A stretch of DNA of 64,000 nucleotides from Promethearchaeota archaeon (GTDB taxonomy: Archaea > Asgardarchaeota > Lokiarchaeia > Sigyniarchaeales > SOKP01), in the NCBI GenBank assembly GCA_048939015.1, contig JBHLPW010000004.1, positions 32,001 through 96,000 on the forward strand, given 5' to 3'. Shown here one piece after another: positions 18,662 through 38,026 of the stretch (position 1 is the first letter of the stretch; every line of letters begins with the position of its first letter). Below the pieces are notes generated by a model. It was given only the letters and a program-made list of their open reading frames with translations. It ran no database searches and was not told where the DNA came from. Position numbers and translations under genes: made by a program.

Positions 18662-20962
18662 ATGGTACCGTTTGAAGAATTTTTACACTTTATAAAGACC
18701 CAAGATTATTATCGTGATCAAATATCTCATATTGAGGATATTCCAGCTCAAAAAGCCCGTTTTGGAGAATTAAAAAAACCAATTAAAAAACGTCTTCAAC
18801 GTTGGCTAGATAGTTATGGTATTAAATTATGGAATCATCAGGCTGAGGCTATCAACCACATTTTTGATGGTAAGAATACTATAATTGTAACTTCTACAGC
18901 CTCAGGGAAATCTCTTTGTTATAATCTTCCTGTTTTAAACTCAATTTTAGAAGAACCATCTACTACTGCTATCTATGTGTTTCCAACAAAAGCATTAGCT
19001 AGAGACCAATTTAATATTTTATCGAATTTATTAACAGATGTAAACATTAAACAAAATCGAATTGGTGTTTATGATGGTGATGTAGAACCAAATGAAAAAA
19101 GATTTGTGTTAAATAATGCGAATATTGTTATCACTAATCCATATGGATTGCATTTCTATTTGCCTTGGTTCAAAAAGAACTGGAGGCGAATCTGCCAGAA
19201 TTTAAAATATATTGTGTTGGATGAAATTCATATCTATAGAGGGATTTTCGGATCCAACTTTGCCCTGCTACTTAGAAGATTAAAAAGATTACTTGAATCT
19301 TATAATGTAAAGCCCCAGTGGATTTTATCAAGTGCTACAATATATAAGCCAAAACAATTTTGTGAAAAGTTAGTAGGTGAAAAGTTTGTAATTGTGGATA
19401 AAGATGATTCACCCTCAGGTGATAAAAAAGTAATTTTATGGGATCTACCTTATGATGAGATTTCTAATAAGTATCATTCAGCTCATCAAGAAACTAAAAA
19501 TCTATTTGTTAGCCATTTAAAACAAGGAATTCAAACTTTAACATTTACACTCTCGAGAAAAATGGCTGAACTTCAAGCAATATGGACGAGAGATACTTTA
19601 CCCACATTAAAAGATAAAATCTTCAGTTACCGAGCTGGTATTAGTAAAAATAAAAGAAGAGAAATTGAACAAAATTTCAAACAAAAGAAAATTATAGGAA
19701 TTAGCTCAACTAATGCTCTTGAATTAGGAATAGATATAGGGTCTCTTGATGCTACGATCAGTTCTGGCTTTCCTGCAACAATCTCAAGTTTCAGACAGCA
19801 AATTGGACGTTCTGGAAGAGGTACCGAGCTTTCCATATCGACTCTCATACCTATGCAAAATCCTCTCGATCTCTTCTATATTCATAATCCAGAAAAGTTA
19901 TTTGGACCAATTCAAGAAGAAATTCTTATCACATTAAATAATAAATATATATTGAGAAATCATATTTGTTGTGCATGTAAAGAAAGCCCTCTAAGAGTAG
20001 AGGATTATAGTAAATTTGGTATTCAAGATAAAAATCTATTTGAAGCATGTTTAGAGCAATTAGTCTCAGAATCTTTATTGATGAAAAGAGGGGAACGTTA
20101 TTTTTGGAATAGTGATTTTTTTCCAAATGAAAAATATGGATTAAATGATCTTTCAAATCGAGGTTATAAAGTCCTACTAAGAACTGAATTAGGTGAAGAG
20201 CTTTTAACTATTGAGGATGAGAGTTTTGTTTTCCGTGACTTACACCAAGGTGCTGTATATCTTTATGAAGCAGAAACGTATATGGTAGAAGAACTCGACT
20301 TACAAGAGAGGTTAGTTTTTCTAAAAAAAGCAAATATAGACTTTTATACCCAATCTTTAAAACATACAGATATAACACCTCTCGAAGTAATTTCAGATAA
20401 AAAAATAGGTTTAAATAAAAATATAGAAGCCTATTTTGGAAATGTGAAAGTAGAACACGAGTATTACTCCTATAAAACCATTGATACATTGACTCAAGAG
20501 ATACGCTCAAGACAACCACTAGAAGATATACCTATCATAGAGTTCGAGAGTCAGGCTATCTGGTTTCTTATCCCTTTTGAATATCAAAAAGAATTGGAAA
20601 TAAAAGGCTATGACCTTGGCGGAACCATTCATGCTATAGAACATGCAATGATAGCTATGGCTCCAGCGTTAGCACAAATCTCTCGGTGGGATTTGGGTGG
20701 TGTCTCCATAGATTTTGATCCTGTTAAATTACAACCTATAATTTATATTTATGATGCCTATAGAGGCGGAATTGGGATATCTGAAGCATTATATTTAAAT
20801 TTACATGAATTACTCGAAATGACTTATAAATTGATAGATTCTTGTAGCTGTAAAACTCCTATTGGTTGTCCATGTTGTACTCTATCACCAAAATGTGGGA
20901 ATAATAATGAACCATTAGATAAAGAAGGAGCAAAATTCATCCTTAGCAAACTCATAAAATAA
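18662..20962 (+). CDS. SF2 DExH helicase with C-terminal DUF1998 Zn domain (Hrq1/MrfA family)
   Basis: TASGKS, PTKALARDQ, DEIH, SAT, ALELGIDIG, QQIGRSGR, HAIEH and CSC..GCPCC..PKC. Confidence 0.93.
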   Translation: MVPFEEFLHFIKTQDYYRDQISHIEDIPAQKARFGELKKPIKKRLQRWLDSYGIKLWNHQAEAINHIFDGKNTIIVTSTASGKSLCYNLPVLNSILEEPSTTAIYVFPTKALARDQFNILSNLLTDVNIKQNRIGVYDGDVEPNEKRFVLNNANIVITNPYGLHFYLPWFKKNWRRICQNLKYIVLDEIHIYRGIFGSNFALLLRRLKRLLESYNVKPQWILSSATIYKPKQFCEKLVGEKFVIVDKDDSPSGDKKVILWDLPYDEISNKYHSAHQETKNLFVSHLKQGIQTLTFTLSRKMAELQAIWTRDTLPTLKDKIFSYRAGISKNKRREIEQNFKQKKIIGISSTNALELGIDIGSLDATISSGFPATISSFRQQIGRSGRGTELSISTLIPMQNPLDLFYIHNPEKLFGPIQEEILITLNNKYILRNHICCACKESPLRVEDYSKFGIQDKNLFEACLEQLVSESLLMKRGERYFWNSDFFPNEKYGLNDLSNRGYKVLLRTELGEELLTIEDESFVFRDLHQGAVYLYEAETYMVEELDLQERLVFLKKANIDFYTQSLKHTDITPLEVISDKKIGLNKNIEAYFGNVKVEHEYYSYKTIDTLTQEIRSRQPLEDIPIIEFESQAIWFLIPFEYQKELEIKGYDLGGTIHAIEHAMIAMAPALAQISRWDLGGVSIDFDPVKLQPIIYIYDAYRGGIGISEALYLNLHELLEMTYKLIDSCSCKTPIGCPCCTLSPKCGNNNEPLDKEGAKFILSKLIK

Positions 20963-21128: not shown

Positions 21129-21665
21129 TTGTCATATACTTCCACATTCAAAATTGTTATATTTGGTGATTCTCAGACTGGAAAAACTACTCTAACTCAT
21201 AGATTTTTAACGAATCTTTTTAAGCAAGATATTACTATGACTTTAGGTGTGGATTTCCACCTTAAAGCTATAGAAATAGACGGAGAAATGATAAAACTAC
21301 AGATCTGGGATTTTGCGGGTGAAGAACGATTTAGATTTCTCTTTCCTTCTTATATTAGAGGAGCTCACGGAGCAGTCTTTATGTATGATATTACAAATTA
21401 TGGTTCACTTGCTCATGTAGATGATTGGTTTGAAATCGTAGAAAAAGAGATAAAATCTCATTTACCAATTATATTTGTTGGTGGCAAAACGGATTTAATA
21501 CATCTGAAAGAAGTATCTACGAAAAAAGCAATGGATTTAGCAATGACTAAAGGAGCAGATGGTTTTGTGGAGTGTAGTTCAAAAACAGGCGAAAATATTC
21601 ATAAAATCTTTAACCTTCTTACGAAATTGATTATAAAAAATCGTGATTTACGAACCGTAGCCTAA
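21129..21665 (+). CDS. Rab/Ras-like small GTPase
   Basis: GDSQTGKT, TLGVDF, WDFAGEERF, GKTD and ECSSK; no C-terminal Cys. Confidence 0.93.
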   Translation: MSYTSTFKIVIFGDSQTGKTTLTHRFLTNLFKQDITMTLGVDFHLKAIEIDGEMIKLQIWDFAGEERFRFLFPSYIRGAHGAVFMYDITNYGSLAHVDDWFEIVEKEIKSHLPIIFVGGKTDLIHLKEVSTKKAMDLAMTKGADGFVECSSKTGENIHKIFNLLTKLIIKNRDLRTVA

Positions 21666-26824: not shown

Positions 26825-27529
26825 ATGCAAAAACAAATAGAAATCCCACGATTCAAAAGTTTTTTATATCGCAGTGCATGGCTTTATAATGCAATTACTC
26901 GGCGACTGTATAATCAAGACAAAAAATTTCTTACAATAGCTTTACTTATTGGAAAAGGTCCAAAAAAAGTTTTAGATATGCCATGTGGCACTGGTTATTT
27001 AATGAGGTTTCTAGATCCCGCAATAGAATATGAAGGTGTAGATTTAAATCGTCGATTTTTAAAGCGTATAAAAAATAAAGAGCTCAAAAAAAGAAATATA
27101 AAATTAAAGAAAATTATATTACACCAAAAAGATATTTTCGAGTTTGATAATTATAAAGGGGAAATAAAAGATGTTATCATTATTAGTGATATTCTGCATC
27201 ATATTTACCCAAAACACATTGAATTAATTAATATAGCAAAGAAAATCTCACGAAAAGTTATAATTTGTGAACCTTACACTGTTAAGCCTAAGAAGATTAC
27301 TGCCCAAGATAAGATTTTTAAAATTATTATTTTTTTTGGTAAATTTCTGCCAGAAGCAATATTCAAAATAGTTGATTTCTTCTTTTTAGATAATGATGGT
27401 ATTAATTCTTACCAAAATAGATCAAAATGGAATCATAACAAAAAAAGCCTAAAACAATTATTAGAGAATTTGGGATTTACAAAAATCTACAAATTATTTG
27501 ATGAATATATCGGTATTTGGGAATATTAA
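26825..27529 (+). CDS. Class I SAM-dependent methyltransferase
   Basis: VLDMPCGTG, GVDLN and DILHH motifs. Confidence 0.85.
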   Translation: MQKQIEIPRFKSFLYRSAWLYNAITRRLYNQDKKFLTIALLIGKGPKKVLDMPCGTGYLMRFLDPAIEYEGVDLNRRFLKRIKNKELKKRNIKLKKIILHQKDIFEFDNYKGEIKDVIIISDILHHIYPKHIELINIAKKISRKVIICEPYTVKPKKITAQDKIFKIIIFFGKFLPEAIFKIVDFFFLDNDGINSYQNRSKWNHNKKSLKQLLENLGFTKIYKLFDEYIGIWEY

Positions 27530-27554
27530 AAATTCATAGAGGTTTAGTAAGAAA

Positions 27555-28223
27555 TTGAAAGTCACATTATCATTATGGGATACTGGAGGACAAGAACGGT
27601 TTGATTTTTTTAAAACAGACTTTTTTAAGGGAGTTGCAGTTCTAGGTTTGGTTTTTGATTTAAGTCGCCCAAATACCTTTGATAAAATAGATGACTATTT
27701 TAATGAAATTCGAGATAGATCTGGAAACATTCCGATTTTTTTAATAGGAAATAAAAACGATTTAAAACAAGATATTGGAGAGATAATACCAAGAGAAAAA
27801 ATTATTCAAAAATTAAATCAATATTATTTATTTGAATACGTAGAAACATCTGCTTTAGAGGATAAAAATGTAGAAAAATTGTTTTATAGATTTGCACTCA
27901 CTGCTTTACTCGATTTTAAACCTAGACTTGGTGAAATTGTTGATTCTAATCATTTTCGATTTAAAGTTTTACTCGCTGGTGCAGCAGCAGTAGGAAAATC
28001 TTCTTTAATAAGAACATTTACAAAAAAAAGCTTTGAACAAGATTATAAATTAACGATTGGTTTGGACTTCATGATACAGGATCTTGAAATTCATGATGAG
28101 GATATTCCCATTGAAACTCAAGAATTAATAAAGAAATCATCGAAAGGATACAAAAAATTAGTTAAAAAATATCGCAAAAGAGAAGAAATAACTGAAATGA
28201 TCGAAGTTCTAAAAGAAGCGTAA
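27555..28223 (+). CDS. Circularly permuted Rab-like small GTPase (G3-G4-G5-G1-G2)
   Basis: WDTGGQ at aa 8-13, NKND at aa 66-69, ETSAL at aa 97-101, GAAAVGKS at aa 142-149, TIGLDF at aa 167-172; in-frame TAG at 27537 upstream. Confidence 0.9.
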   Translation: MKVTLSLWDTGGQERFDFFKTDFFKGVAVLGLVFDLSRPNTFDKIDDYFNEIRDRSGNIPIFLIGNKNDLKQDIGEIIPREKIIQKLNQYYLFEYVETSALEDKNVEKLFYRFALTALLDFKPRLGEIVDSNHFRFKVLLAGAAAVGKSSLIRTFTKKSFEQDYKLTIGLDFMIQDLEIHDEDIPIETQELIKKSSKGYKKLVKKYRKREEITEMIEVLKEA

Positions 28224-29361: not shown

Positions 29362-29574
29362 TTGAGTATTGAAGAACTGCAAGATGAAGTTGATAAATTA
29401 TTAGAAGAAATGGATGAACTTCAAGAAGTTTGTGATACACTCCCCCAATGTGATGAAGATGATGGCTGTGCTACATGTGAGACAAATAAAAAAATTGAAG
29501 CGCTTGAACAAAAAATTGAAGATCTAGAGAATAGAGTAGAAGCACTATTAGGCGAAGAAGAAGAAGAAGATTAA
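29362..29574 (+). CDS. Small acidic coiled-coil protein with four-Cys motif
   Basis: 70 aa, C-x5-C-x5-C-x2-C; AGGTGTG SD-like motif upstream of the TTG. Confidence 0.75.
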   Translation: MSIEELQDEVDKLLEEMDELQEVCDTLPQCDEDDGCATCETNKKIEALEQKIEDLENRVEALLGEEEEED

Positions 29575-29650: not shown

Positions 29651-30949
29651 TTATAGATTTTTAAATAGATATCTTAAATTTCTTGACATAATGAATTGTT
29701 GTATCTGTCTACTTCCTCCAATGATCTCTTGAATCCTCGAAATGTTTAAATGATCATGCATAAGGGTGTTATCACATAAACCTGCTCCGCCCATTAAGTT
29801 TGCTGATTCGTAGCATACTTTCTTAGAAAGCAAAGCACAATTATATTTATATTGGCTTCCTAGGGCAACAAATGCACGGGATATGTTATCTGGGAGTTTT
29901 CCTCCATATTTCTCCATTTTTTCATCATAACTTTCACAAAATTTCAAAATACCGTGTGTAAGAGCTGTAGTTTTGGCTAATAGATCTGTCAATGTAAATC
30001 CAACTCCTTGAAATAACAAAATTTCTTTATCAAATTGTTTTCTCATATTAGCATAAATAATTGCATGTGATAATGCTCCCCAACATTCACTTACACCTCT
30101 AACAGCAATAGAAATTCGTTCTGGTACCAATCCCTCAAAAAGATGTTCTCTTCCTTTACCGACAGGACCCAGTATATATTCTTTTGGTACTCTTAAATTT
30201 TCTAATCTTTCTTTTCCTAAGTATAATTTTGGAACCCAAGGTATTCCTACACGGTCACAATTCCATCCTTCCCAGCTTGTATCAATAAGAAACTGAGCCA
30301 TCAAGTTTCCATTATTCTGTTCTGCGGTTGCATACGCTACTGCCCATTTGGACTTCGGAGCATTAGTATTAAAAATTTTAGTTCCATTTAATAAAAATGA
30401 ACCGTCTTCCTGTTCCTCACATGTTGTTAGCATATGTACTGCATCAGACCCCCTCTCAGGTTCAGTAATTAATAAACATCCAGTGGTTTTTCCAGTTACT
30501 AAATCCTTTAATGCCTCTAGTCGTATTGGAATGTTTTCATGATGCTCATAAATAGGGTTAATACAAATTACAGTTGCACCACTTCCCATAGTAAACTGAG
30601 GATCGAAGAAATCCATTGCCAATATTCTCATAAAATCCATCGTCATCCCAAATTCCTTATATTTTAAATCAATGCAATCATAAGCATGTTGACGAGTAAT
30701 ATACCCTCGTTCACCAAAAGCAGGATACCACTCATAAATATCTTCCTCAGCGCCGTGGGTGATGTTATTTTCTTTTTCAAATTTTAAACAAAAATCCTGG
30801 ACTTCTTTAAGAAATGAAAATTGTTCTTCTGTAAGAATAAGAGATAAATTCTCATTAAGAAAATTGTATCTATTATGTAGTTTTAGTTTTTCCAGGATTT
30901 CATCATTAATAACTTGAGTTTCAAATTTTTTTTTCATTTTAATATACAC
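29651..30949 (-). CDS. Acyl-CoA dehydrogenase (paralog 1)
   Basis: ITEPERGSD, LNGTKIF, RKQF, MGGAG and EIIGGS motifs. Confidence 0.92.
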   Translation of the reverse strand: MYIKMKKKFETQVINDEILEKLKLHNRYNFLNENLSLILTEEQFSFLKEVQDFCLKFEKENNITHGAEEDIYEWYPAFGERGYITRQHAYDCIDLKYKEFGMTMDFMRILAMDFFDPQFTMGSGATVICINPIYEHHENIPIRLEALKDLVTGKTTGCLLITEPERGSDAVHMLTTCEEQEDGSFLLNGTKIFNTNAPKSKWAVAYATAEQNNGNLMAQFLIDTSWEGWNCDRVGIPWVPKLYLGKERLENLRVPKEYILGPVGKGREHLFEGLVPERISIAVRGVSECWGALSHAIIYANMRKQFDKEILLFQGVGFTLTDLLAKTTALTHGILKFCESYDEKMEKYGGKLPDNISRAFVALGSQYKYNCALLSKKVCYESANLMGGAGLCDNTLMHDHLNISRIQEIIGGSRQIQQFIMSRNLRYLFKNL

Positions 30950-31130: not shown

Positions 31131-32429
31131 ATGTCTGAAAAACAAAAGTTTGAGACACAAGTTATTAATGATGAAATTCTTGGGAAATTAAACCTTAAAA
31201 ACCGATACGCGTTTGTAAATAATAATTTAACTTCATTATTATCTCAAGATGAATTCAACTTTTTTCGAAAAGTTCAGCGGTTCTGTCTAAGGTTTGAGAA
31301 AAAAAATGAGATTACTCACGGTCCAGAAGAAGATGTGTATGAATGGATTCCTGCGTTTGGAGCTGAAGGTTTTATTACTCGTCAGCATGCTTTTGAAATG
31401 ATAGATGTAGATTATCCCGAATGGGGACTAGCAATGGATATGCTTCGAACAATCGTAGTTGATAACTTTGATCCTCAATTTTCAATGGCAGAAGGTGCTA
31501 CAGTATTGGCAATAAATCCAGTTTATGAGCATCATGAAAATATTCCTGTAAGATTGGAAGCTTTAAAAGAGTTAGTGACAGGTCACACTCCTGGAGCAAT
31601 TCTTATTACTGAACCTGAACGAGGTTCTGATGCGGTTCACCAGCTAACGACCTGCGAGGAACAAGGAGATGGCAGCTTCTTGTTAAATGGAGAAAAAGTG
31701 TTTAATACTAATGCCCCTAAATCCAAATGGGTAGTTGCTTATGCTACTGCGGAACAAAATAACGGAAATATGATGGCACAATTCTTGATAAATACAAATT
31801 GGGATGGTTGGAGATGTGAACGAGTTGGAATACCATGGGTCCCAAAAGTTTGGATAGGAAAAGAAATATTGACCAATCTAAGAGTTCCAAAAGAATTCAT
31901 ACTTGGTTCAGTTGGAAAAGGTCGTGAACATCTTTTTGAGGGATTGGTACCAGAACGAATAGCTATTGCATATGCTGCTATTGCACAGTGCTGGGGTGCC
32001 CTTTCACACGCAGTAATTTATGCTAACTTGAGAAAACAATTCGATCAGGAGATTTTAAAGTTTCAAGGAGTCGGATTTTTGCTAGCAGACCTGTGGGCTA
32101 AAACTACTAACCTTACATTTGGACTTTTGAAGTTCTGCGAAAGTTTCGATGAAAAATATATAAAATTCGAAGGGAACATTCCTCGAAATATTAGCCAAGC
32201 TATGGTTGCATCTGCGAGTCAATTTAAATATCAAGCTACAGCACTTTCAAAGGAAGTATGTTACGAAGCGGCTAACTTGATGGGCGGAGCAGGTTTATGT
32301 GATAATACTTTAATGCAAGATTATCTAAATATTTCTCGAATCCAAGAAATTGTTGGTGGAAGTAGGCAAATCCAACAATATATTATGAGTTTATCACTTA
32401 GAACTCTATATAAAATGTCTGTTTCCTAA
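31131..32429 (+). CDS. Acyl-CoA dehydrogenase (paralog 2)
   Basis: Same motifs as paralog 1; transcribed divergently from it. Confidence 0.92.
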   Translation: MSEKQKFETQVINDEILGKLNLKNRYAFVNNNLTSLLSQDEFNFFRKVQRFCLRFEKKNEITHGPEEDVYEWIPAFGAEGFITRQHAFEMIDVDYPEWGLAMDMLRTIVVDNFDPQFSMAEGATVLAINPVYEHHENIPVRLEALKELVTGHTPGAILITEPERGSDAVHQLTTCEEQGDGSFLLNGEKVFNTNAPKSKWVVAYATAEQNNGNMMAQFLINTNWDGWRCERVGIPWVPKVWIGKEILTNLRVPKEFILGSVGKGREHLFEGLVPERIAIAYAAIAQCWGALSHAVIYANLRKQFDQEILKFQGVGFLLADLWAKTTNLTFGLLKFCESFDEKYIKFEGNIPRNISQAMVASASQFKYQATALSKEVCYEAANLMGGAGLCDNTLMQDYLNISRIQEIVGGSRQIQQYIMSLSLRTLYKMSVS

Positions 32430-34842: not shown

Positions 34843-36126
34843 TTAGAGCATTTTAAAGAGCTGTCTTAAAGCCATACTCATAATATATTGTTGTATTTGC
34901 CTACTCCCACCAACAATTTCTTGGATTCGAGAAATATTTACATAATCTTGCATTTGAGTATTATCTGACAAACCTGCACCCCCCATTAAGTTAGCCGCTT
35001 CATAACATATCTGTTTGGAAAGGCTAGTACAATGATATTTAAACTGAGATGCACTTGCTACCATAGCCCTAGAAATATTCGCAGGGATTTTTCCTTGAAA
35101 TTTTTCCATTTTGTCATCATAAGCCTCACAGAATTTCAATAATCCGAGCGTTAAGTTTGTGGTTTTAGCCCATAAATCTGTTAGAAGAAACCCTACTCCC
35201 TGAAACTTAAGAATTTCTTGATTAAATTGTTTTCTCATATTAGCATAAATAGCAGCATGTGAAAGGGCACCCCAACATTGTGAAATAGCCCCACAAGCGA
35301 TTCCAATTCTCTCTGGTACTAATCCTTCAAACATGTGTTCTCTTCCTTTTCCAACAGAGCCAAGAATATACTCTTTTGGGACGCGTAGATTTTCAAACCA
35401 TTCATGTCCTAAATATAATTTTGGTACCCAAGGGATATTTACTCTTTCACACTTCCATCCTTCCCAATTTGTATTGATAAGGAACTGTGCCATCAAGTTT
35501 CCATTATTCTGTTCTGCAGTTGCATACGCGACTGCCCATTTGGACTTCGGTGCATTAGTATTATAGACTTTTTCTCCATTTAATAAGAATGAACCATCTT
35601 CTTGTTCCTCACAGGTTGTTAGTTGATGGACTGCGTCAGAACCCCTCTCTGGCTCAGTAATACAAATACAACCCGATGCTACTCCAGTCACTAAATCCTT
35701 AAGAGCTTCTAATCTTTCAGGAATATTTTCATGGTGTTCTATAATGGGATTAATTGCTAAAACAGTTGCCCCACTCCCCATTGCGAATTGAGTATCAAAC
35801 ATATCGATTGATAAATAGCGAAGGAAGTCTGCGACTGCTCCATATTCTTCGTAAACAACATCAATTACTTCAAAATTATGAGCTCTTGTGATATAACCTT
35901 CCGCTCCAAAATCTGGAATCCAATCATAGACATCTTCCTCTGGACCATGTGTGATTTCATTTTTCTTTTCATACCTCATACAGAATTTTTGGACCTTTTT
36001 AAGAAAGTTAAATTGGTCTGGTGACAATATTGCCATAAGGTTATTATTCAAAAAGGAATATCTGTTCTTCAAGCTCAGTTTATCAAGAATCTCGTCGTTA
36101 ATTACTTGATCTACATATCTTGACAT
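34843..36126 (-). CDS. Acyl-CoA dehydrogenase (paralog 3)
   Basis: Same motifs as paralogs 1 and 2. Confidence 0.92.
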   Translation of the reverse strand: MSRYVDQVINDEILDKLSLKNRYSFLNNNLMAILSPDQFNFLKKVQKFCMRYEKKNEITHGPEEDVYDWIPDFGAEGYITRAHNFEVIDVVYEEYGAVADFLRYLSIDMFDTQFAMGSGATVLAINPIIEHHENIPERLEALKDLVTGVASGCICITEPERGSDAVHQLTTCEEQEDGSFLLNGEKVYNTNAPKSKWAVAYATAEQNNGNLMAQFLINTNWEGWKCERVNIPWVPKLYLGHEWFENLRVPKEYILGSVGKGREHMFEGLVPERIGIACGAISQCWGALSHAAIYANMRKQFNQEILKFQGVGFLLTDLWAKTTNLTLGLLKFCEAYDDKMEKFQGKIPANISRAMVASASQFKYHCTSLSKQICYEAANLMGGAGLSDNTQMQDYVNISRIQEIVGGSRQIQQYIMSMALRQLFKML

Positions 36127-36314: not shown

Positions 36315-37067
36315 TTAACAAATCAATTTTTGTATCCTATTTGATAACCTTTTTGAGATTACCAATCCTGTCTCAAAAGGACAATTACTTTTAAATTGAA
36401 TCACAGAAATAAAGTGTTCATCAATTCCTACCAAAGAAAGCACACCAAAATCTTCTAAAGAAATGAGTTCATTAACTCTAAAATTTCCTGATATAAAACG
36501 TCCTTCTAATAATCGAATAATTTCTGATAGGATATTTGTTTCTAATGATGAAACTATAACTCGACCAGTTTGAGTCAATAAAGCTGAAGATACAACAAAA
36601 GAAGAAAAAGTGTGTAATTCATTAAAAACTGTTAATAAATTCTTTTTAATTTCATCTGAAACCAATTGGCTATGATTCTCCATAATGTCGTTAATATCTT
36701 TCTCAAATTCGAAATATTTTGAAATTTCGCCGTTGAAATTATTCGTTAGTAGAGTTAAATCATATTTATTGATAAATTTATTTTTAATTGCTCTTAATTG
36801 ATTTCTTAGCTCAACTAAGTTGTCAGTTCGGTCGCTAAAAAGCGCAAATAATAACTCATCATTTCCTATTTTTTCGATTTCAAATATAAACCTAAATAAT
36901 CCAACTTCAATTTCAGATAATTCTTCTGTTTTTAGTGTTTGCTTTACAAAGGAAAAAATTGCACTTAAAAAACTACTGGTTAATTTAACATTAAAAATAT
37001 CTTCATAAGTTTTATAAAAGATGAGTTCACCTGTGTTTCCTTTCATTATAAAGATATTTTTTATCAT
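36315..37067 (-). CDS. Longin-like + Roadblock-like two-domain protein
   Basis: N-terminal IKNIFIM..TGELIF...LTSSFLSAIFSF..LSEIEVG longin pattern; C-terminal VVSSALLTQTGRVIVSSL roadblock pattern. Confidence 0.72.
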   Translation of the reverse strand: MIKNIFIMKGNTGELIFYKTYEDIFNVKLTSSFLSAIFSFVKQTLKTEELSEIEVGLFRFIFEIEKIGNDELLFALFSDRTDNLVELRNQLRAIKNKFINKYDLTLLTNNFNGEISKYFEFEKDINDIMENHSQLVSDEIKKNLLTVFNELHTFSSFVVSSALLTQTGRVIVSSLETNILSEIIRLLEGRFISGNFRVNELISLEDFGVLSLVGIDEHFISVIQFKSNCPFETGLVISKRLSNRIQKLIC

Positions 37068-37258: not shown

Positions 37259-38026
37259 TTAAAATCCATCAAATTTTGCCCATTCATCTTCTTCCTCGAG
37301 TTCCTCTTCATCGTCTGTATATTCCTCGATTTCATCGCTTCTATAACTTTCAGTTGCCTCTTCCTCAAAATCTTCCAGTTCATCTTCAAAAGTAATTGCC
37401 TCTTCTAGATCAGTTATAGTATCGGCAGAGACCTTTATTTCTGGAATAGGTTCTTCTAAAGGTTTTTTCTTCTCAACCAATTTTAAATAATCTCCATGGA
37501 TCTTAATAGTTATAGGTGTCTCTTCCTGAAGTAGTCTTACTACGACCTCTTCACTACTACTAGTGTCATGAGGCATACGCATTACTAATGCTCGGGATCC
37601 TTCAAAAACCCCACTGATAATTTCTACCGTATCTCCTTCTTCCAAGTATTCGGTTACACTTCTTGGCAATAAGACATGCTTTAATTCAGTTAACTTTATG
37701 TTCTGTACAATTCTTCCTTTAATATGAGGAATTCCTTGAACAGCAATTTGTACATCTCTCTTCTGAGGTGCCTCAAAGAAAATATAACCTGGTAACAAAG
37801 GAGATACAAGCATAGCTCTTATATCTGGTATTACTTCTAAAATTTTAAATCTATAGAAAATTTGTTTTAAAATATTACTCTCTTGATTTATTGTAGTTCT
37901 TACCGCAAATAGTGTAGTTAAATCCTCTAGATCTTCAATTTCATCTGTTCCAATAGTTCCTAGAATATCCACTTCCTCACTTTCCATTTTTTTCATATTT
38001 TCTTCTTGATCTGTCAATATTTTCAC
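37259..38026 (-). CDS. spt5: Transcription elongation factor Spt5 with acidic extensions
   Basis: FAVRTTINQE and LPGYIFFEA (NGN domain); LEEGDTVEIISGVFEG (KOW). Confidence 0.92.
   Translation of the reverse strand: MKILTDQEENMKKMESEEVDILGTIGTDEIEDLEDLTTLFAVRTTINQESNILKQIFYRFKILEVIPDIRAMLVSPLLPGYIFFEAPQKRDVQIAVQGIPHIKGRIVQNIKLTELKHVLLPRSVTEYLEEGDTVEIISGVFEGSRALVMRMPHDTSSSEEVVVRLLQEETPITIKIHGDYLKLVEKKKPLEEPIPEIKVSADTITDLEEAITFEDELEDFEEEATESYRSDEIEEYTDDEEELEEEDEWAKFDGF

What the first reader, a model, noticed from the sequence alone, without database searches (positions are those of the whole stretch)
27555..28223. Circularly permuted Rab-like GTPase with unusual G3-G4-G5-G1-G2 order
Seen: the protein begins at strand beta3 (KVTLSLWDTGGQERF), runs through G4 (NKND), G5 (ETSAL) and alpha5, crosses a linker of about 17 aa, then supplies beta1-P-loop (FKVLLAGAAAVGKSS), alpha1, switch I (YKLTIGLDF) and beta2 (MIQDLEI). 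Each element of one G domain occurs exactly once and intact. An in-frame TAG at 27537 and the upstream gene ending at 27529 leave no room for a normal N-terminus, and GAGGT precedes the TTG. Established: known cpGTPases (RbgA/YlqF, RsgA/YjeQ, YqeH, Nog2/Lsg1) have G4-G5-G1-G2-G3 and are not Ras-family. Inference: a natural permutant opened at the interswitch beta2-beta3 turn, which would covalently uncouple switch I from switch II or allow head-to-tail domain-swapped oligomers. I do not know of a description of this arrangement but could not search.
Basis: partly seen in the sequence, partly recalled or inferred. Interest (0 to 1): 0.9.

Follow-up and report, generated by a model that had tools for sequence, protein, structure and literature searches.

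The report
Permuted Rab-like GTPase of Lokiarchaeia
This Asgard (Loki-type) archaeon encodes a real, conserved small GTP-switch protein whose two halves are in swapped order; the same swap is already known from a rare eukaryotic domain (cpRAS), but here it very probably arose separately, and in relatives it sits on a membrane anchor.

Summary
ORF 27555-28223 (+, 222 aa) matches one Ras-family G domain in two pieces: residues 2-114 match Pfam Ras positions 47-157, and residues about 133-184 match positions 1-50. An in-frame stop lies 6 codons upstream. It is not an artefact or a decaying gene. One copy per genome occurs in 49 of 53 species of its genus and, patchily, in the rest of its order (42-89% identity). 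Every copy starts at strand beta3. dN/dS is about 0.08 in both halves, and all G1-G5 residues are invariant. AlphaFold2 with an alignment gives one compact G domain (pLDDT 82, pTM 0.81).

The claim that the G3-G4-G5-G1-G2 order is undescribed is wrong: Elias and Novotny described it in 2008 for eukaryotic cpRAS. This family differs from cpRAS. It is Rab-like rather than RAS-like, archaeal, and stand-alone or N-terminal. It forms one clade nested among this genome's own Rab-like paralogs, so I infer an independent origin.

All orthologs outside the genus end in a transmembrane helix. The window copy lost it and keeps a +9 amphipathic helix directly after beta2. I read it as a membrane-attached switch without lipidation (inference).

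The scan noted the same family earlier on other genomes, and one follow-up reached a similar verdict.

The parts
27539..27543 (+). Shine-Dalgarno-like GAGGT, 11 nt before the TTG start
   Evidence: Read in the sequence. A GAGG/GAGGT/AGGTG motif is found before the start in 15 of 30 orthologs.
27555..28223 (+). CDS of the circularly permuted Rab-like GTPase (222 aa, P0001)
27558..27593 (+). Strand beta3 plus G3 (residues 2-13, KVTLSLWDTGGQ). D9, G12 and Q13 are invariant.
   Evidence: Pfam/PDB alignments; invariant columns in the 99-sequence alignment; model strand E2-9.
27582..27629 (+). Switch II (residues 10-25)
   Evidence: Aligned to Rab switch II. Residues 13-18 have low pLDDT, as flexible switch regions often do.
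27750..27761 (+). G4, NKND (residues 66-69). K67 and D69 are invariant.
27846..27854 (+). G5, TSA (residues 98-100). S99 and A100 are invariant.
27870..27911 (+). Helix alpha5 (residues 106-119)
   Evidence: Model helix H106-119.
27912..27950 (+). New linker from alpha5 to beta1 (residues 120-132, DFKPRLGEIVDSN). G126 is invariant in the 99-row alignment. D120, R124, L125 and E127 are invariant in the 30-row alignment and at least 90% conserved in the 99-row one. D130 is invariant only in the 30-row alignment.
   Evidence: Conservation; dN/dS 0.115.
27951..28001 (+). Strand beta1 plus P-loop G1 (residues 133-149, GAAAVGKS). G142, G147 and K148 are invariant.
   Evidence: The GAAAVGK P-loop is shared with only one canonical paralog of the genome.
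28032..28058 (+). Switch I / G2 (residues 160-168, YKLTIG). T167 is invariant.
   Evidence: Residues 160-168 have low pLDDT.
28062..28088 (+). Strand beta2 (residues 170-178), last element of the G domain
   Evidence: Model strand E170-178; aligned to Rab beta2.
28110..28217 (+). C-terminal helix (residues 186-221). Residues 191-208 (28125-28178) are polybasic and amphipathic: charge +9, hydrophobic moment 0.68.
   Evidence: Model helix H186-221. Moment and charge, with 7 of 2000 shuffles as high. Orthologs outside the genus continue into a TM helix.

Best explanation
The gene encodes a functional, nucleotide-binding small GTPase of the Rab-like branch of the Ras superfamily. Its chain is circularly permuted at the beta2-beta3 (interswitch) turn: beta3/G3, G4, G5 and alpha5 come first, then a conserved 13-residue linker, then beta1/P-loop, alpha1, switch I and beta2. 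It folds into one ordinary G domain (shown by prediction).

The permutation arose once, in an ancestor of part of one Loki-type (Promethearchaeia) order, from an Asgard Rab-like paralog. The likely route is fusion of two tandem Rab-like genes followed by trimming of both ends (inferred). It was then inherited vertically as a single-copy gene, with losses in several genera.

The permutation moves the C-terminus from alpha5 to the end of beta2. In the ancestral form a spacer and a transmembrane anchor hang there. In the sister family the chain continues into a long low-complexity linker, an uncharacterised conserved domain and one or two hydrophobic TM-like segments. The window's lineage lost the TM helix and retains only a polybasic amphipathic helix.

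I infer a membrane-attached (here peripheral, electrostatic) GTP switch that needs no lipid modification. Its anchor is joined directly to the nucleotide-sensitive switch I/beta2 element, so nucleotide state and membrane or partner contact may be coupled. The target process is unknown.
For: Shown:
- Two Pfam/PDB stretches in swapped order tile the Ras model once.
- All G1-G5 key residues are invariant in 99 homologs at 36-92% identity.
- dN/dS is 0.08 in each half, 0.115 in the linker and 0.26 in the tail.
- There is one copy per genome in 49 of 53 species of the genus and 63 of 134 genomes of the family, plus 3 of 14 genomes of a sister family. Identity falls with taxonomic distance.
- The gene tree follows taxonomy.
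- The AlphaFold2 model has pLDDT 82 and pTM 0.81. All six strands and five helices of a G domain are present, and only the two switches have low confidence.
- Foldseek matches Rab7, Rab11, Rab43 and RhoA at about 1.9 A over the collinear 104-125 residues.
- The top 60 PDB hits of each half are Rab/Ypt proteins, including a Thorarchaeota Rab.
- Both halves have the same best canonical paralog in the genome (contig C17, 175 aa). It is the only canonical paralog with the GAAAVGK P-loop.
- In a tree of 13 in-silico re-ordered family members with 67 canonical G domains (58 from this genome), the permuted family is one clade (SH-aLRT 98). It is nested (91) beside the C17/C21/C10 Rab-like group.
- Tandem C17-type Rab gene pairs and fused double GTPases exist in the same lineage.
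- All 9 complete orthologs outside the genus have a C-terminal TM helix. Within the genus the TM was lost at least 2-4 times.
- The tail segment 191-208 has charge +9 and hydrophobic moment 0.68.

Inferred: GTPase activity, membrane binding, coupling of the tail to switch I, and the duplication-fusion route.
Against: - There is no biochemical or expression evidence.
- I could not inspect model coordinates, so the beta2-beta3 pairing rests on pTM and secondary structure only.
- Foldseek is sequential and aligns only the larger half.
- Eukaryotic cpRAS and reference Ras sequences were not in my tree, so independence from cpRAS rests on family assignment and nesting among Asgard paralogs.
- The gene is absent from many genera of the same family, for example 1 of 42 genomes in one genus, so it is dispensable there.
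- The window copy has no TM helix, and a polybasic helix could also bind nucleic acid or a protein.
- Neighbouring genes give no functional clue. The conserved upstream 681-aa gene does not co-occur with it.
Confidence: 0.75

Rival explanations
1. It is an archaeal member of the cpRAS family by descent: one ancient permutation is shared by this Asgard family and the eukaryotic CPRas proteins.
For: The motif order G3-G4-G5-G1-G2 and the break point in the beta2-beta3 turn are identical. [quoted passage not shown]
Against: The paper assigns cpRAS to the RAS family proper, with a TIE G2 motif, and finds it inside VWA or COG2373 proteins. This family has a Rab-type TIGLDF motif, and all top PDB hits of both halves are Rabs. 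It nests among Lokiarchaeial Rab-like paralogs. It occurs in only 9 of 85 sampled Asgard genera, all in one order. No VWA-linked relatives were retrieved.
Confidence: 0.07
2. It is an assembly artefact or a decaying remnant of a tandem double GTPase.
For: Tandem and fused Rab-like genes exist in this lineage and match the query across their junction.
Against: The same arrangement and the same ends are found in 67 of 400 sampled genomes and in more than 120 protein clusters from independent assemblies. dN/dS is about 0.1. Catalytic residues are invariant. There are no stops inside the close orthologs, and the start position is conserved.
Confidence: 0.01
3. The open beta2-beta3 turn makes the protein an obligate domain-swapped dimer or head-to-tail polymer rather than a closed monomer.
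For: The free N-terminal beta3 and the C-terminal beta2 could in principle pair between chains. The long C-terminal helix could form a coiled coil.
Against: With an alignment, the single chain is predicted as one compact domain with high pTM. Nothing in the data requires a partner chain.
Confidence: 0.1
4. In the TM-less forms such as this one, the polybasic helix binds RNA, the ribosome or another acidic partner. The protein would then be a soluble regulator, like other cpGTPases of ribosome assembly.
For: The tail has charge +9 over 18 residues. The TM helix was lost repeatedly within the genus. Known YlqF/RsgA cpGTPases act on ribosomes (established knowledge).
Against: All outgroup orthologs are TM-anchored, and the helix is amphipathic rather than merely basic. 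The protein has no similarity to the TRAFAC ribosome-assembly GTPases: RsgA and MMR_HSR1 match only the P-loop, below or near their cut-offs.
Confidence: 0.15

Closest known systems
cpRAS domain of eukaryotic CPRas proteins (Elias and Novotny 2008, Biol Direct 3:21, PMC2430557)
   Same: Ras-superfamily G domain with the order G3-G4-G5-G1-G2. The chain is opened between strands beta2 and beta3, and alpha5 is joined to beta1 by a new loop. All GTPase motifs are retained. No function is known.
   Different: cpRAS belongs to the RAS family proper (TIE G2 motif). It is described as eukaryote-specific and is embedded in 840-3900-aa proteins with VWA/Sec23-trunk or macroglobulin-like regions. The present family is Rab-like (TIGLDF, WDTGGQ) and archaeal. 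It sits at the very N-terminus and is followed by a basic helix and/or a TM anchor. It nests among Asgard paralogs, so its origin is probably independent.
Canonical Asgard Rab-like GTPases (e.g. Thorarchaeota Rab, PDB 7EZB; Surkont and Pereira-Leal 2016, PMC4915359) and eukaryotic Rab11/Ypt31
   Same: These are the best sequence matches for both halves (E about 1e-24 overall). The switch and RabF-like motifs are the same, and a canonical paralog in the same genome is 44-51% identical.
   Different: They have the normal G1-to-G5 order. Archaeal Rab-like proteins were reported to lack any C-terminal extension, polybasic region or other membrane signal (PMC4915359). This family has such signals.
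YRG / YlqF-RbgA, RsgA, YqeH circularly permuted GTPases
   Same: They are natural circular permutants of the P-loop GTPase fold that keep GTPase function.
   Different: Their order is G4-G5-G1-G2-G3, opened after beta3. They belong to the TRAFAC ribosome-assembly lineage, are universal and ancient, and are not Ras-superfamily.
Arf/Sar1 family (functional analogy only)
   Same: An amphipathic helix next to the interswitch mediates lipid-independent or lipid-assisted membrane binding coupled to nucleotide state.
   Different: In Arf the helix is N-terminal and the chain is not permuted. The coupling here is only hypothesised.

Membership tests
Ras superfamily small GTPase (Pfam PF00071) | Score above the Pfam gathering threshold | tested here: met
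   123.4 bits against a cut-off of 21.6.
Ras superfamily small GTPase (Pfam PF00071) | G1 GxxxxGK[ST], G2 Thr, G3 DxxGQ, G4 NKxD and G5 SA all present and conserved | tested here: met
   G142/G147/K148, T167, D9/G12/Q13, K67/D69 and S99/A100 are invariant in 99 homologs.
Ras superfamily small GTPase (Pfam PF00071) | Canonical linear order G1-G2-G3-G4-G5 | tested here: not met
   The order is G3-G4-G5-G1-G2.
Rab family sensu stricto | RabF motifs (IGVDF, KLQIW, RFRSIT, YYRGA, LVYDIT; recalled from Pereira-Leal and Seabra 2000) | tested here: inconclusive
   IGLDF and LVFDLS fit. TLSLW, RFDFFK and FFKGV are only similar (read). Both halves hit Rabs best.
Rab family sensu stricto | C-terminal prenylatable cysteines | tested here: not met
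   The protein contains no cysteine.
cpRAS (Elias and Novotny 2008) | Motif order G3-G4-G5-G1-G2 with a break between beta2 and beta3 | tested here: met
cpRAS (Elias and Novotny 2008) | RAS-family affiliation (TIE G2 motif) | tested here: not met
   The G2 region reads YKLTIGLDF. The top 60 PDB hits of each half are all Rab/Ypt.
cpRAS (Elias and Novotny 2008) | Association with VWA/Sec23-trunk or COG2373 regions in large eukaryotic proteins | tested here: not met
   The protein has 222 aa. Long relatives carry no Pfam domain other than the GTPase, and no VWA-linked hits were found.
cpRAS (Elias and Novotny 2008) | Monophyly with CPRas sequences in a tree | not testable with these tools
   No CPRas sequence could be fetched by reference.
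YRG/YlqF-type cpGTPases | Order G4-G5-G1-G2-G3 | tested here: not met
   G3 precedes G4 at the N-terminus. RsgA_GTPase and MMR_HSR1 match only the P-loop, below or near their cut-offs.

The most novel reading that the evidence does not exclude
A second, independent natural origin of the G3-G4-G5-G1-G2 GTPase topology. It was selected in Lokiarchaeia because it puts the membrane anchor (a TM helix or polybasic amphipathic helix) directly on the switch I/beta2 element. This would create an Arf-like, nucleotide-coupled membrane switch in a Rab-like protein without any lipid modification. It would be an archaeal solution to the membrane-cycling problem that eukaryotic Rabs solve with prenylation and GDI.
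Probability: 0.3. Interest if true: 0.75.

Novelty: new variant of a known kind. Interest (0 to 1): 0.6.

Why it matters
- The G3-G4-G5-G1-G2 permutation was once argued to be incompatible with folding, because it cuts the beta2-beta3 reverse turn (Anand et al., as cited in PMC2430557). cpRAS was the only counter-example. It has never been characterised, partly because it sits in 840-3900-aa eukaryotic proteins.
- This family is a small (222 aa), cysteine-free, stand-alone version with hundreds of natural sequences. That makes the topology directly testable by structure and biochemistry.
- It is also a Rab-like protein of Asgard archaea with explicit membrane-attachment signals. An earlier survey of archaeal Rab-like proteins reported none (PMC4915359). 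This bears on how small-GTPase membrane cycles looked before eukaryotes.
- I found no paper in the held library that describes a permuted Asgard GTPase. Databases label it only as "GTP-binding", "SAR1 family" or "ADP-ribosylation factor-like".

Tried and rejected
- Single-sequence AlphaFold2 gave a useless model (pLDDT 40), so I repeated it with an alignment.
- The homodimer test (complex prediction, two copies with alignment A2) returned "no answer" with score 0.00. I treat it as no evidence either way.
- Three attempts to retrieve eukaryotic CPRas proteins found only tandem-Rab proteins and the family's own long forms. These were the "longer" searches with the protein and with the profile, and the representative search. 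No direct tree with cpRAS could be made.
- Candidate partner by synteny: the 681-aa DUF4139-like gene sits upstream in most of the genus and in four of the seven out-of-genus loci of the same family. I rejected it as a dedicated partner. It occurs in genera that lack the permuted GTPase (37 of 42 genomes in one genus). It was also not found at E <= 1e-30 in some complete genomes that have the GTPase.
- The methyltransferase and HD-domain neighbours come and go within the genus.
- The C-terminal domain of the long forms has no Pfam match. It has only unnamed, mostly archaeal (Promethearchaeota) look-alike clusters in the ESM Atlas, the third being bacterial.
- NCBI labels of close homologs as Thor-, Odin-, Hod- or Hermodarchaeota suggested an Asgard-wide family. 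The genome search places those records in the same genus, and the Hod-, Hermod- and Thor-labelled records seen all come from one MAG series. I reject that reading.

Full report
**1. Observation**

The ORF at 27555-28223 (+) encodes 222 aa from a TTG start.
- TAG 27537-27539 is in frame six codons upstream.
- The preceding methyltransferase gene stops at 27529.
- GAGGT lies at 27539-27543.

Several searches show that one G domain is present exactly once, cut in the beta2-beta3 turn and re-joined alpha5 to beta1.
- Pfam Ras matches at E 8.4e-36 in two stretches. Residues 2-114 cover profile positions 47-157.
- A six-frame scan of the whole genome reports positions 44-157 followed by 1-50 in one open frame.
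- phmmer against PDB aligns residues 5-113 to Rab11 residues 59-165 and residues 133-182 to Rab11 residues 5-54.

Of 94 Ras-family matches in this 4.86-Mb genome, this is the only permuted one.

**2. A real gene, not an artefact**

The 5.8-billion-protein search returned more than 120 clusters at 72-92% identity. All are about 207-277 aa and begin M(L)K(V/I)TLSLWD.

A search of 400 Asgard genomes (E <= 1e-40) found the following:

| Group | Genomes with a copy | Identity |
|---|---|---|
| Own genus | 49 of 53 | 66-89% |
| Own family | 63 of 134 | 49-66% in other genera |
| Sister family, same order | 3 of 14 | 42-44% |
| Rest of the phylum | 0 of 251 | none |

- Each genome with a match has one copy. 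The four negative genomes of the genus are 58-88% complete.
- Whole genera of the family lack the gene, for example 1 of 42 genomes in one genus. It is therefore lineage-restricted and dispensable in places.
- NCBI labels such as Thor-, Hod- or Hermodarchaeota on close homologs come from one MAG series. They conflict with the genome-based placement.
- In all 39 loci examined, the open frame upstream of beta3 is at most 23 codons long, too short for a beta1-alpha1-beta2 unit.
- The closest orthologs use ATG, GTG or TTG at the window's start codon. Most others have an ATG one codon earlier.

Nei-Gojobori dN/dS over 30 orthologs:

| Region | dN/dS |
|---|---|
| Whole protein | 0.10 |
| beta3 to alpha5 part | 0.08 |
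| beta1 to beta2 part | 0.08 |
| New linker | 0.115 |
| Tail | 0.26 |

**3. Fold and catalytic equipment**

In an alignment of 99 homologs at 36-92% identity, the key residues of all five motifs are invariant:
- D9, G12 and Q13 (G3)
- K67 and D69 (G4)
- S99 and A100 (G5)
- G142, G147 and K148 (G1)
- T167 (G2)

AlphaFold2 with this alignment gives pLDDT 82 and pTM 0.81.
- Strands lie at 2-9, 27-35, 61-66, 94-97, 133-142 and 170-178.
- Helices correspond to alpha3, alpha4, alpha5 and alpha1.
- Low confidence is confined to switch II (13-18) and switch I (160-168).

Foldseek places the collinear part on Rab7, Rab11, Rab43 and RhoA at about 1.9 A. It cannot align the permuted half, and I could not inspect coordinates. 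The single closed domain therefore rests on pTM and secondary structure.

The linker (120-132) is unusually conserved: G126 is invariant, and D120, R124, L125 and E127 are at least 90% conserved.

**4. Origin**

- The top 60 PDB hits of each half are Rab/Ypt proteins, including a Thorarchaeota Rab.
- Within the genome, both halves have the same best canonical paralog, on contig C17 (175 aa): 44% identity for the N-half and 51% for the C-half.
- That paralog is the only canonical one with the family's GAAAVGK P-loop.
- I re-ordered 13 family members in a script and built a tree with 67 canonical G domains, 58 of them from this genome.
- In that tree the permuted family is one clade (SH-aLRT 98). 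It is nested (91) next to the C17/C21/C10 Rab-like group.
- The same lineage has adjacent C17-type Rab gene pairs (locus L116).
- It also has fused double GTPases, for example a 355-aa Lokiarchaeota protein.
- These are the substrates expected for permutation by duplication, fusion and end-trimming. That route is inferred, not shown.

**5. The tail**

- All nine complete orthologs outside the genus end in a hydrophobic TM helix.
- In the sister family and in metagenomic relatives (P0132, P0134, P0136, P0141, P0148) the domain stays at the extreme N-terminus.
- There it is followed by an acidic or Pro-rich low-complexity spacer, a conserved domain with no Pfam match, and one or two hydrophobic segments that score as TM helices.
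- On the ortholog tree the TM helix is ancestral and was lost at least 2-4 times within the genus. The window copy is a TM-less form.
- What remains is helix 186-221. Residues 191-208 carry charge +9 and a hydrophobic moment of 0.68, reached by 7 of 2000 shuffles.
- The protein has no cysteine.
- I therefore infer a membrane-attached switch, peripheral in this organism, whose anchor leaves from beta2 next to switch I.
- Whether nucleotide state is coupled to the tail, as in the Arf interswitch toggle, is a hypothesis only. Another first-stage note on this window raised the same idea.

**6. Comparison with the known**

The order G3-G4-G5-G1-G2 is not new.
- Elias and Novotny (2008) described it as cpRAS. 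It is a RAS-family domain (TIE motif) found in large VWA or COG2373-like proteins of scattered eukaryotes. They called it eukaryote-specific.
- A 2026 paper still treats CPRas as a possible LECA gene.

The present family shares the topology but fails the other cpRAS features: RAS affiliation, domain context and taxon. It also fails the YlqF/RsgA order.

Surkont and Pereira-Leal reported that archaeal Rab-like proteins lack C-terminal extensions, polybasic regions or other membrane signals. This family is an exception.

Full-text searches that combined Asgard with "circularly permuted", "permut", GTPase or Rab terms found no description of it. The Asgard Arf preprint does not mention a permutation either.

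The scan's own index shows the same family noted on other genomes. One follow-up there reached a similar verdict. My tests were done independently of it.

**7. Context**

- Gene order is conserved within the genus: 681-aa DUF4139-like gene, methyltransferase, this gene, HD-domain gene (opposite strand), 70-aa acidic coiled-coil gene, acyl-CoA dehydrogenase. The methyltransferase and HD genes come and go.
- The 681-aa gene stays adjacent in some other genera. Its phyletic pattern does not follow the GTPase, so I do not propose it as a partner.
- The 25-nt gap to the methyltransferase gene suggests co-transcription (inference).

**8. Verdict**

This is a real, conserved, clade-restricted, circularly permuted Rab-like GTPase. 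It has the same topology as cpRAS but very probably an independent origin. It carries a membrane-anchoring tail that this copy has reduced to a polybasic helix. I class it as a new variant of a known kind, of moderate to high interest, chiefly because it is small and tractable.

Noticed in passing
Proteins P0132, P0134, P0136, P0141 and P0148; loci L061 (G144) and L062 (G132): Long forms of the family (428-755 aa). They consist of the permuted G domain, an acidic or Pro-rich low-complexity spacer, a conserved roughly 150-aa domain (motifs such as KRKTTVFY, FPGC, PLDARKD, TPTKVVKQT) with no Pfam match, and one or two C-terminal hydrophobic segments scored as TM helices. The best ESM Atlas look-alike clusters are unnamed and from Promethearchaeota.
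   Followed up: partly
Own genome, contig C82:50175-50984 (outside the window): A 270-aa open frame resembling a Rag/Gtr1-type GTPase (DLGGQ, HKYD, then a roadblock-like C-terminal part). It begins at strand beta3, and no G1-G2 coding sequence lies in the 500 nt upstream, which instead hold short direct repeats. It could be a split, interrupted or truncated gene.
   Followed up: partly
Locus L116:839-1970 (Promethearchaeia MAG BLK3-3.bin.73): Two adjacent canonical Rab-like genes of the C17 type, with GAAAVGKT and GAGAVGKT P-loops, about 30 nt apart. Joining the 3' part of the first to the 5' part of the second would give the permuted arrangement.
   Followed up: partly
Window 29362-29574 (+): A 70-aa, very acidic coiled-coil protein with a Cys cluster. 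It stays next to the locus in nearly all orthologous loci of the genus and has no convincing family match.
   Followed up: partly
Window 29651-30949 (-), 31131-32429 (+), 34843-36126 (-): Three paralogous genes of about 430 aa resembling acyl-CoA dehydrogenases, 60-75% identical to syntenic copies in other genera. Together with 36315-37067 (called a longin-roadblock fusion by another note) and 37259-38026, they form a block that stays near the permuted GTPase across genera.
   Followed up: no
Window 21129-21665 (+): A canonical 178-aa Rab-like GTPase (Pfam Ras 8.5e-46, positions 1-160) next to a DEAD/MrfA-type helicase gene (18662-20962). This pair is also syntenic in other genera.
   Followed up: no
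They carry orthologs 70-84% identical to the window's protein, while the genome search found the family only within the window's order and not elsewhere in the phylum. Their taxonomic labels look unreliable.
   Followed up: partly
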